64,000 nucleotides of DNA from Ostrea edulis (Eukaryota): assembly GCF_947568905.1 (NCBI RefSeq), contig NC_079171.1:4092001-4156000 (forward strand). The letters run 5' to 3'. Shown one piece after another: positions 3,081 to 53,872 of the stretch. The notes under the pieces were generated by a model that worked only from the letters and a program-made list of their open reading frames with translations, was not told the origin of the DNA and did no database searches. Numbering within the stretch: the first letter of the stretch is position 1; every line of letters begins with the position of its first letter. The translations under genes and the position numbers were made by a program.

Positions 3081-3576
3081 ATGGCAGAAGCATTTTTTAA
3101 GACGTTTGAAGATTTCGAGCAAGAGTGGTTAGATTTGGGAAAAGAATTTGAGGTGGTGTTTGATTCGGGGTAAGTACGTCTCTTTTTTTTTTTTGGTCTT
3201 TTTTTTTTAAATTATCACTTATCAAAGTTATAATAGCTGTCATTTTTTATGTCGAATTTTTTTTTGATGTTGAAATTGTTATTTTCTATTACAATGACAG
3301 AAAAAAAAAGTTACACATTTTCTTTCGTAATGTTTGTGTTAGAAACCTATTCAAAGGTTCTGAATAAAGCAAAATTACATTATTGTCTTCCCATTCTAAA
3401 CTTGATGCCTATACAAAGCTACATATTCAGAAGATTTCAAATCTTCATTTTGATAAAAAAAAAATTGTAAAAAAAAAAAAAAAAAAAAGTTTGTTTCAAT
3501 TTGATTCATGGTTTTACTTTAAGTTACGTACAAAACTATCAAAAAAAAAAAAATGTAAAAAATAAATAAATGTTCC

Positions 3577-3611
<35 letters not shown>

Positions 3612-49917: not shown

Positions 49918-52900
49918 TGAACAAACGTGGAGTTGTAACGTGTAAAACTTACAAGAACAATTGTGTCAGTGTTTTCCTTAATCGTGCCAGAACCCAAATC
50001 CGTGAAATTCGCGTCCCTATGTGTACTATCGATATTGTGGTCAACAGAAAGTGGGAGTCCCTTACTGACTTTCCAGTAGTGCGGGACATTAGGGGACATC
50101 AATGTGCCAGTGTATTCAGTAAGTAGTACTTGGGGTTTTCATTATTTCAAATTAACGTGTATTTGACCACTTAATATATCATTTTTTGAACGACAAGTCG
50201 TTGTTTGTCGTTGTTGTGGTGATTTGCTAGAAGAGGAGGGGGTTTTTAACGAATGATGTATCGTGAGAAAAATAGGACCACGTGATATTTTCATAAACCA
50301 ATCAAATCACTGCGTCTTTTACTATGGAATGTTTACGTTTGTACAACTTGTGTATTGGTATTTAATTATGTAATTTAGTCTTAACTGATTCTTAGAACGT
50401 TTCTGTAAATATCAAGAACAAATTAATAACTCGTGTTTTCAGTTCTAACTGTGACTGGTATCTAAAATAAGTACTCGTATGATCGGGTTCGGGGTACATA
50501 CAGGGAATGTGAAATCGGAAGTTTGAAACGTTCCCTTTGTTAGAGGGTGTACAGTGAAACTGAAAGTAAACATTTTGTTTTTGTTGTAGATCCCCTAAAA
50601 AAAAATAATCACCGCTCCTTTTAAAAATGTATTGCAGATATGCCTACTGAAGAGTCCAAGATGTTGGCCACCACTACAATACCATCCACTTCATCAGCAA
50701 ATACACAAGGGAGGGCTTGGATTGGGCCAGCGTCATTGAAAAGTACAACTCAAGGTAGGACTGCATTTGTTGAACTAGGTTGACTTGGTAGTTTTACACA
50801 ATTTAACAAGAGTATAATTCAGAAATATTATTGAAAGATTAAAAAGCAAAGTAGTATTTTTTTCTTACCTGGAAAAAAAACCCAAAATAGTCACCACCTC
50901 TGTGTAAAAAAAAAATGTATTGCAGATATGCCTACTGAAGAGTCCAAGATGTTGGCCATCTTTACAGTGCCATCCACTTCATCAGCAAATACACAAGGGA
51001 GGGCTTGGATTGGGCCAGCGTCATTGAAAAGTAAAACTCGAGGTAGGACTGCTTTAACGTTATATATCCCTCAGCAAGGCGGGGTAACTCATACATATAT
51101 AAGATAATGATGAAATTAAAAAAAAAAATGTTTTCTATTATGTTCTGATTGAATGATTATCAATTATCCACCAGAATACATATCTATATCAACTGCGAAT
51201 CTTGATCAACATATAAATTGATAATGGAAAAGAGCATTTTCAATTTCTGACACCTGAGGGATGGATAACCTTAATTGAACTAGGTTGACTCAGTAGTTTT
51301 ACACAACAATTTAACAAGAGTATAATTCAGAAATATTATTGAAAGATTAAAAAGCAAAGTAGTATTTTTCTTACCAGGAAAAAAAAAACCCAAAATAGTC
51401 ACCACCTCTGTGTAAAAAAAAAATGTATTGCAGATATGCCTACTGAAGAGTCCAAGATGTTGGCCACTTCTACAATACCATCCACTTCATCAGCAAGAAC
51501 ACAAGGGAGGGCTTGGATTAGGCCAGCGTCATTGAAAAGTACAACTCAAGGTAGGACTGCATTTGTTGAACTAGGTTGACTTGGTAGTTTTACACAATTT
51601 AACAAGAGTATAATTCAGAAATATTATTGAAAGATTAAAAAGCAAAGTAGTATTTTTTTCTTACCAGGAAAAAAAAACCCAAAATAGTCACCACCTCTGT
51701 GTAAAAAAAAATGTATTGCAGATATGCCTACTGAAGAGTCCAAGATGTTGGTCATCTTTACAGTGCCATCCACTTCATCAGCAAATACACAAGGGAGGGC
51801 TTGGATTGGGCCAGCGTCATTGAAAAGTAAAACTCGAGGTAGGACTGCTTTAACGTTATATATCCCTCAGCAAGGCGGGGTAACTCATACATATATAAGA
51901 TAATGATGAAATTAAAAAAAAAAATGTTTTCTATTATGTTCTGATTGAATGATTATCAATTATCCACCAGAATACATATCTATATCAACTGCGAATCTTG
52001 ATCAACATATAAATTGATAATGGAAAAGAGCATTTTCAATTTCTGACACCTGAGGGATGGATAACCTTAATTGAACTAGGTTGACTCAGTAGTTTTACAC
52101 AACAATTTAACAAGAGTATAATTCAGAAATATTATTGAAAGATTAAAAAGCAAAGTAGTATTTTTCTTACCAGGAAAAAAAAAACCCAAAATAGTCACCA
52201 CCTCTGTGTAAAAAAAAAATGTATTGCAGATATGCCTACTGAAGAGTCCAAGATGTTGGCCACTTCTACAATACCATCCACTTCATCAGCAAGAACACAA
52301 GGGAGGGCTTGGATTAGGCCAGCGTCATTGAAAAGTACAACTCAAGGTAGGACTGCATTTGTTGAACTAGGTTGACTTGGTAGTTTTACACAATTTAACA
52401 AGAGTATAATTCAGAAATATTATTGAAAGATTAAAAAGCAAAGTAGTATTTTTTTCTTACCAGGAAAAAAAAACCCAAAATAGTCACCACCTCTGTGTAA
52501 AAAAAAATGTATTGCAGATATGCCTACTGAAGAGTCCAAGATGTTGGTCATCTTTACAGTGCCATCCACTTCATCAGCAAATACACAAGGGAGGGCTTGG
52601 ATTGGGCCAGCGTCATTGAAAAGTAAAACTCGAGGTAGGACTGCTTTAACGTTATATATCCCTCAGCAAGGCGGGGTAACTCATACATATATAAGATAAT
52701 GATGAAATAAAAAAAAAAAATGTTTTCTATTATGTTCTGATTGAATGATTATCAATTATCCACCAGAATACATATCTATATCAACTGCGAATCTTGATCA
52801 ACATATAAATTGATAATGGAAAAGAGCATTTTCAATTTCTGACACCTGAGGGATGGATAACCTTAATTGAACTAGGTTGACTCAGTAGTTTTACACAACA

Positions 52901-53872
52901 ATTTAACAAGAGTATAATTCAGAAATATTATTGAAAGATTAAAAAGCAAAGTAGTATTTTTCTTACCAGGAAAAAAAACCCCCAAAATAGTCACCACCTC
53001 TGTGTAAAAAAAAAAAATGTATTGCAGATATGCCTACTGAAGAGTCCAAGATGTTGGCCACTTCTACAATACCATCCACTTCATCAGCAAGAACACAAGG
53101 GAGGGCTTGGATTGGGCCAGCGTCATTGAAAAGTACAACTCGAGGTAGGACTGCTTTTGTTGAAAAATGTTAATAAATAGATATCATACATGTTAAGCCA
53201 ATTTCAATTTCTTTTAGAAATGAATTGTAAAGCTTTATTGTTAAATTCTTGTGTAGACATGCAAATTCTTTGTTGAGACTATTACGATTATCACAATTAT
53301 GATTTTTGGGCTAATGTTTTGTGTTTTTAAATTCCAGGGTTACAATTATCTACCGAAGAATTTGACGTGCCTGGGACCGCAGGTCAGTTTGAAACCCTAC
53401 TGATGTTAATTATCCATGAGAATGAACTGAACAGATTTTTTTTTTTTGATAATTACTTGTTGTATTTGTATGTTGTGTTTGATGCATTGATGAAAGTGTT
53501 AATTGTAATTACTTGTTCTAACTTTTAATAGGTGTTTTTGCCTGGGCAGTTGTCACAACACTTGCCATTATTCTGATTGTGATAAGGCATCTTTTGCTTT
53601 CGAAAATAAAATGCTGCTGTAGAAGGCAAGTCAACCATCTTCCTAGAACACCATCACCACCTTCAACACCGTGCACTCGTGAAACTGTAGAGCAGATAAG
53701 AATGCATTTATTGCACACACCATCTTCCATTGCTACCACCCCCAGCAGTTTATCGGCGTCAACCCCCAACACAGTAGTTTCAGTAACTCGACCTCTCCTT
53801 GGTGATGATGACGATGAACCTATTTCACAACGTACCAGGGCTAAAAGTGTCGCAAAGAGACTTAGCCTGTAA
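49918..53872 (+). pseudogene. Remainder of the element C membrane-protein gene: exon 1 3' part (49918-50118), seven 117-nt mucin exons, exon 53338-53382, TM exon 53532-53872
   Basis: All junctions are GT-AG phase 1. TM GVFAWAVVTTLAIILIVI followed by KCCCRR; the tail EPISQRTR parallels SPVSSHTR in B. Confidence 0.8.
50638..53144 (+). repeat. Higher-order tandem array (~796-bp dimer of 288 and 508 bp) carrying seven copies of a 39-codon exon
   Basis: Exon starts at 50638, 50926, 51434, 51722, 52230, 52518 and 53028, each ttgcag|ATATGCCTACT...G|gtagga. Confidence 0.9.

What the first reader, a model, noticed from the sequence alone, without database searches (positions are those of the whole stretch)
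3081..53872. Overall system: Mavericks with a modular, intron-containing early region and a host-defence countermeasure arm
Seen: three elements share the layout TIR, a small spliced nuclear-type gene transcribed towards the TIR, a divergent spliced mucin-like membrane gene, then pPolB. The right arm of B holds DP71L-like, TM-PC4 and CARD-PC4 genes. Core virion genes are intronless and compact, while the left-arm genes have host-like exon structure. Inference: a virus-like lineage with adenovirus-style functional regions (transcription control, cell-surface modulation, translation shut-off rescue, death-fold decoy) rather than a minimal transposon.
Basis: inference. Interest (0 to 1): 0.88.

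Follow-up and report, generated by a model that had tools for sequence, protein, structure and literature searches.

The report
Oyster Mavericks swap surface-protein cassettes
These are virus-like Maverick insertions in an oyster genome whose near-identical replication and capsid cores carry anciently different, interchangeable versions of a spliced gene for a predicted cell-surface protein, plus a conserved small gene that likely reverses the host's antiviral shut-off of protein synthesis.

Summary
Layout confirmed, with corrections. B (29481-49911) is inserted inside exon 1 of C's membrane gene, and A's polymerase lies upstream of the window. The host is a flat oyster by protein labels.

Twelve TIR-bounded copies of the B/C family have cores about 0.2% apart yet three left-arm types. 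Across 26 fetched elements of the clade, the right-arm genes follow the core and show purifying selection: CARD-PC4 dN/dS 0.11-0.26, and a DP71L-like gene with PP1- and eIF2alpha-binding motifs.

The left arm behaves differently. Its membrane gene (signal peptide, six-cysteine domain, S/T/P stalk, TM) is saturated at synonymous sites between elements with near-identical cores. It is exchanged whole or in parts; all mapped introns within each left-arm gene share one phase, and one copy has a chimeric small gene. At least 59 ectodomain clusters under 50% identity exist publicly, with full-length relatives in Saccostrea.

Seven of 12 left-arm types also keep an alternative TM and tail with an Nck-type YDxV/I motif inside the last intron. 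Expression timing and every immune function remain inferred. Verdict: new variant of a known kind.

The parts
1..1121 (-). Element A membrane gene, 5' part: signal + six-Cys exon (851-1121) and part of the S/T/P stalk exon (to 332); it continues upstream of the window
3081..5102 (+). Element A small gene, 4 exons (3081-3169, 3756-3860, 4249-4314, 4478-5102), with RNA polymerase II CTD-like heptads in the last exon
   Evidence: PF05001 E 1.8e-9
5650..5849 (-). Element A left TIR (AGTAGT terminus)
23933..24170 (+). Element C left TIR with 18-bp repeats and one TGACGTCA site
24666..27835 (-). Element C small gene, 4 exons (27810-27835, 27363-27446, 25104-25250, 24666-24900); a Tc1/mariner element sits in intron 2
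29369..29480 (+). Element C membrane gene exon 1, 5' half, cut by the insertion of B
29481..49911 (+). Element B, TIR to TIR, 20,431 bp, 6-bp TSD on both sides; its first 875 bp are C-type and the rest of its left arm is B-type
30375..31933 (-). Element B small gene, 4 exons (31908-31933, 31334-31426, 30862-30957, 30375-30600)
33041..35410 (+). Element B membrane gene, exons 33041-33311, 33986-34285, 34480-34542, 35073-35410; a broken alternative TM + YD-motif tail lies at 34542-34814 in the last intron
36924..41615 (+). B protein-primed DNA polymerase B, intron 39883-40014, in-frame stop in exon 2
   Evidence: PF03175
41966..47026 (-). B core: 117-aa ORF, packaging ATPase (frame broken in B), adenain-type protease, double jelly-roll major capsid, basic 169-aa ORF, 145-aa ORF (minor capsid by position only, untested), rve integrase + chromodomain
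47204..48196 (-). CARD fused to two PC4 stretches
48531..48755 (-). DP71L/GADD34-like 74-aa ORF with RVxF-type and eIF2alpha-binding motifs
48799..49239 (-). TM-like stretch + PC4 domain
49337..49642 (-). Conserved small ORF of no known family, also present in a distant Maverick family
49918..53872 (+). Element C membrane gene, remainder: exon 1 3' half (49918-50118), seven 117-nt stalk exons, acidic exon 53338-53382, TM + tail exon 53532-53872
55050..64000 (.). Element C pPolB and core, 98.9% identical to B over 8.9 kb; the element ends 4 kb beyond the window

Best explanation
These are recently inserted copies of an oyster Maverick (polintovirus-like) clade in which a conserved core and right arm are combined with a left-arm cassette whose anciently diverged versions are swapped between elements, and the cassette's predicted cell-surface protein likely acts in recognition conflicts with host immunity or rival elements. 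Shown: nesting and clustering of copies; purifying selection on right-arm genes; left-arm versions saturated at synonymous sites on near-identical cores; uniform intron phase within each mapped left-arm gene; a natural chimeric small gene; stalk-exon number varying from 3 to 7. Inferred mechanism: co-resident nested or clustered copies recombine, and crossovers in same-phase introns keep the reading frame, so ectodomain, stalk and TM-tail modules reassort. Rare-allele advantage would keep many old versions alive. The DP71L-like protein is predicted to recruit PP1 to dephosphorylate eIF2alpha (about 0.75). CARD-PC4 is most likely a DNA-binding replication or transcription cofactor with a captured Apaf-1-like CARD for assembly or caspase interference. 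The surface protein most likely works like the variable glycoproteins of adenovirus E3 (recalled analogy), displayed on the expressing cell to blunt haemocyte recognition (about 0.45).
For: Perfect 6-bp TSDs in 10 of 12 two-ended copies. Core distance 0.05-0.4%, median 0.18%, over 55 pairs of 11 copies. Left arms of 13 family copies: 8 C-type, 4 B-type, 1 third type. B vs a C-type copy: MCP pS 0.010 and integrase pS 0.000, but ectodomain pS 0.73 at 30% aa identity. e3.94 vs e25.4: MCP pS 0.000, ectodomain pS 0.60. e3.94 vs e4.18: integrase pS 0.66 but alternative TM-tail pS 0.054. An AU test rejects the core-sister pair as a clade in the TM-tail tree (p 2.7e-5). Copy e1.19 has B-type exons 1-3 with the C-type last exon. 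Pairwise identity follows the polymerase for CARD-PC4 (rho 0.83) but not for the TM2 exon (rho -0.15) and weakly for the ectodomain (rho 0.35) (pairs are not independent). dN/dS in unsaturated diverged pairs: CARD-PC4 0.11-0.26, DP71L-like 0.19-0.45, ectodomain 0.25-0.35. RefSeq models with two isoforms exist for the B-type membrane gene. 60 ectodomain clusters at E<=1e-3, one a false repeat hit; same-architecture full-length proteins in two Saccostrea species.
Against: No direct expression data were obtained. No function was tested. Three of four AU tests did not reject core-congruent clades (p 0.054, 0.073, 0.21; short alignments), and I had seen the TM-tail tree before running the test. No pair shows dN/dS above 1, so diversifying selection is inferred from allele retention, not measured. 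Two of seven TM-tail pairs are not significantly below 1. The Maverick context of the homologues in other oysters was not seen; only a shared contig length links them to CARD-PC4 genes. Many copies carry stops or frameshifts.
Confidence: 0.7

Rival explanations
1. The left arm is passively captured host cargo, as in nematode Mavericks, and its variety reflects repeated independent capture of host genes.
For: Intron-containing, poorly conserved cargo next to the left TIR is described in nematode Mavericks (10.1101/2022.07.12.499685, passages). The genes have host-like exon structure.
Against: The 12 left-arm types examined carry homologues of one membrane gene in the same position and orientation (53 of 55 ectodomain pairs z>3 against codon shuffles; the most divergent type, e4.925, was not in that test). 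Of 11 own-genome ectodomain hits, 8 lie in fetched elements, 2 lie about 5.8 kb from a Maverick TIR, and 1 is a left-arm fragment without a core.
Confidence: 0.1
2. The surface protein serves exclusion between elements: a resident copy blocks entry or activity of elements with the same allele, so new alleles escape.
For: Many old alleles on one core; B, with a different allele, inserted into and disrupted C's own membrane gene; dense nesting on contig C8.
Against: Eight C-type and four B-type copies coexist in one assembly, so same-allele insertion is not blocked. A non-enveloped capsid gives no obvious route for a membrane protein to act at entry. One insertion site may be chance.
Confidence: 0.12
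3. The accessory genes have been domesticated or are maintained by the host (for example as immune receptors or in a silencing cluster), not by an active virus-like element.
For: The clade is concentrated on one contig: 4 of the strong MCP matches lie elsewhere. RefSeq annotates some genes as host genes.
Against: Copies are young, dispersed, flanked by TSDs and decay at random. Selection is seen between subfamilies, as expected from selection during mobility.
Confidence: 0.08

Closest known systems
Animal Mavericks/Polintons (adintoviruses, Polintoviricetes); PMC8097293 passages, PMC8502044 passages and section 3.2
   Same: AGTAGT termini, TIRs, 6-bp TSD, pPolB, rve integrase, ATPase, adenain protease, DJR capsid. 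Accessory regions flanking the core, and anti-apoptotic accessory genes (Bcl2, IAP), are already reported.
   Different: Intact vertebrate elements are described as intronless; here pPolB and both left-arm genes are spliced. DP71L-like, CARD-PC4 and the six-Cys surface protein are not in the accessory lists I read (supplementary figures not seen). The gene upstream of pPolB lacks the LxCxE 'Oncoid' motif.
Nematode Mavericks with wasp/krma cargo and the MFUS-1 fusogen (10.1101/2022.07.12.499685, passages)
   Same: A variable, intron-containing region beside the left TIR; an element-encoded type I membrane protein.
   Different: The cargo there is unrelated enzyme families. Here one fixed two-gene cassette varies by allele and module exchange. 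The ectodomain is about 66 aa, far smaller than a class III fusogen.
ASFV DP71L, HSV ICP34.5, PPP1R15A/B (PMC5346070 passages)
   Same: About 70 aa, PP1-binding motif, the eIF2alpha-binding consensus, and an LxxxL downstream.
   Different: It sits in an integrating 20-kb element of a mollusc. Other subfamilies of the clade have His for Arg in the RF position, and the distant family lacks the consensus Gly. Activity untested.
Adenovirus E1A/E3 organisation (recalled, no call)
   Same: Terminal regions for host control; spliced, variable membrane glycoproteins.
   Different: No sequence relation tested or found; no early/late timing known; the element integrates.
Mosaicism in Polisuviricotina (10.64898/2026.10.13.758929 and PMC11296320, passages)
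   Same: Module exchange, with tandem or nested integration proposed as its route.
   Different: In the passages read, those papers concern replication and capsid modules of distant lineages. This is exchange of accessory alleles and gene parts among near-identical cores in one animal genome.

Membership tests
Maverick/Polinton | TIRs with AGTAGT-type ends and a 6-bp TSD | tested here: met
   10 of 12 two-ended copies have a perfect TSD, 1 has 5 of 6, 1 has none
Maverick/Polinton | Protein-primed PolB and rve integrase | tested here: met
   PF03175 E 1e-20; PF00665 E 1e-11
Maverick/Polinton | Packaging ATPase, adenain protease, DJR major capsid | tested here: met
   PF00770 above its cut-off; PF04665 E 0.002 and PF21738 E 0.003 below their cut-offs but in the expected order
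Maverick/Polinton | Minor capsid protein | not tested
   The 145-aa ORF is assigned by position only; no Pfam or PHROGs hit
Polintovirus (forms virions) | Particles or extrachromosomal linear DNA | not testable with these tools
   Only indirect: MCP dN/dS 0.02-0.08 between subfamilies
PPP1R15/DP71L/ICP34.5 | RVxF-type PP1-binding motif | tested here: met
   16 of 16 frames found by the motif scan; also visible in the other subfamilies printed
PPP1R15/DP71L/ICP34.5 | eIF2alpha-binding consensus as quoted in PMC5346070 | tested here: met
   12 of 12 B-family copies match; 4 of 4 distant-family copies do not, nor do the His variants tested
PPP1R15/DP71L/ICP34.5 | Pfam PF10488 gathering score | tested here: inconclusive
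   25.4 bits against 26.1, E 1.3e-5
PPP1R15/DP71L/ICP34.5 | Promotes eIF2alpha dephosphorylation | not testable with these tools
   Needs an assay
Adintovirus Oncoid / E1A-like | LxCxE motif in the gene upstream of PolB | tested here: not met
   None on the small-gene strand of the left 4.5 kb in 25 of 26 elements; the one hit is in a core fragment
Viral CARD-only decoy | Stand-alone death-fold domain | tested here: not met
   The CARD is fused to two PC4 stretches, as in most near-full-length homologues
Known ectodomain folds (LRR caps, Ig, EGF, Ly6) | Structural or profile match | tested here: inconclusive
Nck-recruiting viral membrane proteins (vaccinia A36 type) | Cytoplasmic acidic Tyr-Asp-x-Val/Ile motif behind a TM | tested here: met
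   YD invariant in 7 of 7 open alternative tails; the A36 Nck peptide is given in PMC9333988. A motif resemblance only; binding untested

The most novel reading that the evidence does not exclude
Oyster Mavericks are live viruses with a serotype-like system. Dozens of ancient surface-protein alleles are reshuffled part by part across same-phase introns, and an alternatively processed isoform recruits Nck through a YDxV/I tail to drive actin-based cell-to-cell spread, as vaccinia A36 does, while a DP71L-like protein lifts eIF2alpha shut-off.
Probability: 0.2. Interest if true: 0.88.

Novelty: new variant of a known kind. Interest (0 to 1): 0.66.

Why it matters
Whether animal Mavericks are infectious viruses is a long-open question. 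A translation-rescue gene of the DP71L type and a hypervariable surface protein, both kept under purifying selection, make sense mainly for an element that expresses itself in somatic cells facing an antiviral response. They give direct single-protein assays and allele markers with which to look for activity in existing oyster RNA and DNA data. The cassette also shows a simple way to generate surface diversity without an adaptive immune system on either side.

Tried and rejected
Expression: no RNA holder was listed; this blank is no evidence either way. Four contig runs of unrecorded kind were laid on B. None of the 15 joints shown (46 more not shown) is a GT-AG splice. In run X6, of another organism, B's left-arm bins have far lower depth than the core; contig depth is no copy number, so I do not use it as support.

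The ectodomain tree is unresolved (no starred branch) and was not used. My donor read-through control (14 of 245) was confounded by real exons and was dropped in favour of the shuffle test. NG86 values for saturated pairs were not interpreted, and broken frames were left out of dN/dS.

No hit in IMG/VR for CARD-PC4. A search with the alternative TM-tail profile among longer proteins found one unnamed gene call and no RefSeq model (candidates were capped), so that isoform is not shown to be expressed. The fourth right-arm ORF stayed unassigned.

Literature: 10 searches listed no paper on oyster Maverick accessory genes or on a GADD34-like gene in Mavericks; all 17 listed papers had 0 occurrences of GADD34. 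The library lacks most subscription papers and Repbase. Supplementary figures of PMC8502044, which map accessory genes, were not seen. Four look-ups in earlier scan findings returned nothing.
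Full report
Setting. The window is G000:C8:4092001-4156000 of an 895-Mb assembly. Proteins on a contig of the same length are labelled Ostrea edulis. Element names such as e31.7 are my labels from the Mb position.

Anatomy. A is a minus-strand element whose left TIR ends at 5849. Its pPolB and core lie upstream of the window (67-90% aa identity to B for pPolB, ATPase, MCP and integrase), and it is cut off inside CARD-PC4. C starts at 23933 and ends 4 kb beyond the window. B (29481-49911) has inserted into exon 1 of C's membrane gene. 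B and C differ by 5 substitutions in the last 9.5 kb, but beyond the first 875 bp their left arms do not align at DNA level. Core genes were identified by Pfam. The virion genes are single ORFs. pPolB has a GT-AG intron of 127-165 nt in 16 of 22 copies scanned; the acceptor pattern was not found in the other 6.

Left-arm genes. The small gene has four exons in A, B and C, all introns in phase 2, each exon open. The versions share an acidic N-terminal helix motif and a C-terminal helix; the latter was found by script in 9 of 12 left-arm types, and 21 of 21 tested pairs score z>3 against codon shuffles. It has no LxCxE motif, so a nuclear regulatory role is inference. The membrane gene encodes a signal peptide, a six-cysteine domain in one exon, an S/T/P stalk, an acidic exon, a TM and a P/S/T tail with a basic end. 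B's three introns are phase 1, and exon 1 ends in phase 1 in all 11 types listed. RefSeq holds these models, with two isoforms for the B type that differ by the acidic exon, each with four accessions shown. From my knowledge of that pipeline, isoforms usually rest on RNA alignments; I did not see them.

Copies and exchange. A TIR search gave 12 two-ended copies plus a partial one. Their cores are 0.05-0.4% apart (55 pairs, the most distant copy left out; up to 1.4% with it). Their left arms are 8 C-type, 4 B-type and 1 other. The ectodomains of B and C types are 30% identical with pS 0.73, while MCP pS is 0.010. That cannot arise in place on so young a core. The pattern repeats in a second subfamily: e3.94 and e25.4 share core and small gene but not the membrane gene. 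e3.94 shares its acidic exon and alternative TM-tail with e4.18 (pS 0.054), whose integrase is at pS 0.66 and whose ectodomain differs; the AU test agrees (p 2.7e-5), while three other AU tests were not significant. Copy e1.19 has a chimeric small gene, and C-type copies have 3-7 stalk exons. Uniform intron phase makes such swaps frame-safe; that it is the enabling cause is inference.

Wider distribution. A profile of 11 ectodomains found 60 clusters at 50% identity, one of them a false repeat hit. Of 20 looked up, most are unnamed. Named ones are from Saccostrea echinata and S. cucullata (full architecture; two isoforms in the latter) and Crassostrea gigas (a model without the TM). CARD-PC4 has 98 homologues, the named ones all from bivalves. 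Their Maverick context was not seen.

Hidden isoform. Reading through the donor of the acidic exon gives a second TM and a tail of about 75 aa ending in an acidic YD(S/E)(I/V)-FD motif. The frame is open in 7 of 12 left-arm types, broken in B and e4.89, reduced to a remnant in C and e33.7, and not found in e4.925. 15 of 15 pairs tested score z>3, and dN/dS is 0.25-0.90, significant in 5 of 7 pairs. The motif resembles the Nck-binding peptide of vaccinia A36 (PMC9333988, passages; PMC2172230, passages). No RefSeq model of it was found, and the youngest family has lost it, so it is dispensable for recent copying.

Right arm. Of 26 scored elements, the DP71L-like gene and the fourth ORF are in 24 (both absences are truncated elements), CARD-PC4 in 25 and TM-PC4 in 15. 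dN/dS between subfamilies is 0.11-0.26 for CARD-PC4, 0.19-0.45 for the DP71L-like gene, 0.09-0.33 for the fourth ORF and 0.17 for the one unsaturated TM-PC4 pair, against 0.02-0.08 for MCP. The DP71L-like protein hits ASFV DP71L and PPP1R15B in the PDB and matches the eIF2alpha-binding consensus quoted in PMC5346070 (passages) in 12 of 12 B-family copies. Oyster PERK is reported as poly(I:C)-inducible (PMC9680061, search listing only). The best natural PDB hits of the CARD are Apaf-1 (E 3e-4).

What is known. Accessory regions flanking the core and purifying selection on core genes are described for vertebrate Mavericks (PMC8097293, passages). Anti-apoptotic and Oncoid accessory genes are described for adintoviruses (PMC8502044, passages and section 3.2). 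Intron-bearing left-arm cargo is described in nematodes, and module mosaicism in Polisuviricotina. Insect polinton cargo was also read (10.1101/2025.02.07.637071, passages). The general idea is therefore not new. Ten searches did not list the DP71L-like gene, the CARD-PC4 fusion or an allelic, reshuffled surface-protein cassette in Mavericks, within the limits given under Tried and rejected.

Verdict. A real and well-supported system, and a new variant of a known kind. Architecture, selection and cassette exchange are shown. Early timing, immune function and virion formation are inferred. Interest 0.66.

Noticed in passing
G000:C8 (3.9-5.0, 25-27, 33, 44.8, 51.6-52.2, 70 Mb): The clade is concentrated on one contig and repeatedly nests in other Mavericks; only 4 of the strong MCP matches lie on other contigs. 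This suggests target preference, local hopping or a silencing cluster.
   Followed up: partly
L073-L078 and genome-wide: A second, distant Maverick family (MCP about 31% identical) also carries a DP71L-like ORF and the unassigned right-arm ORF (4 of 4 loci seen). A third family (MCP about 38%) carries TM-PC4.
   Followed up: partly
window 23974, 29522, 49863: A perfect TGACGTCA (CRE/ATF-type, recalled) site lies in the TIRs of B and C and in the ends of most scored elements. It could link activation to the stress pathway that the DP71L-like protein would counter.
   Followed up: partly
window 4545-4890: RNA polymerase II CTD-like heptads occur in the small gene of A-type elements (also e4.18 and e4.89); B and C types have only short S/P-rich stretches.
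   Followed up: partly
window 48317-48482: An internal copy of the 18-bp TIR repeat lies between CARD-PC4 and the DP71L-like gene; contigs in two or three runs skip from it to the right TIR.
   Followed up: no
L081-L084: Two similar derivatives have a TIR, a membrane gene and DP71L-like pieces but no core hit within 20 kb; possibly non-autonomous elements.
   Followed up: partly
window 25618-27169 and 16799-17427: A Tc1/mariner element with an open 335-aa transposase lies in intron 2 of C's small gene; a second, decayed Tc1 lies upstream.
   Followed up: no
window 15157-19333: A decayed Maverick of another family with pPolB and PC4-like remnants.
   Followed up: no
window 5828-6946: A 372-aa Cys/His-rich ORF without a Pfam hit runs into A's TIR; it is probably a transposon gene interrupted by A (recalled resemblance).
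   Followed up: no
P0002, P0003, P0005: CARD-PC4 proteins of Crassostrea angulata and Saccostrea echinata are 87-89% identical to B's, closer than several subfamilies in the same genome (62-66%), which would fit transfer between oyster genera.
   Followed up: no
L042-L052, L064-L071: Several subfamilies carry an extra 130-160-aa helical ORF between the DP71L-like gene and CARD-PC4.
   Followed up: no
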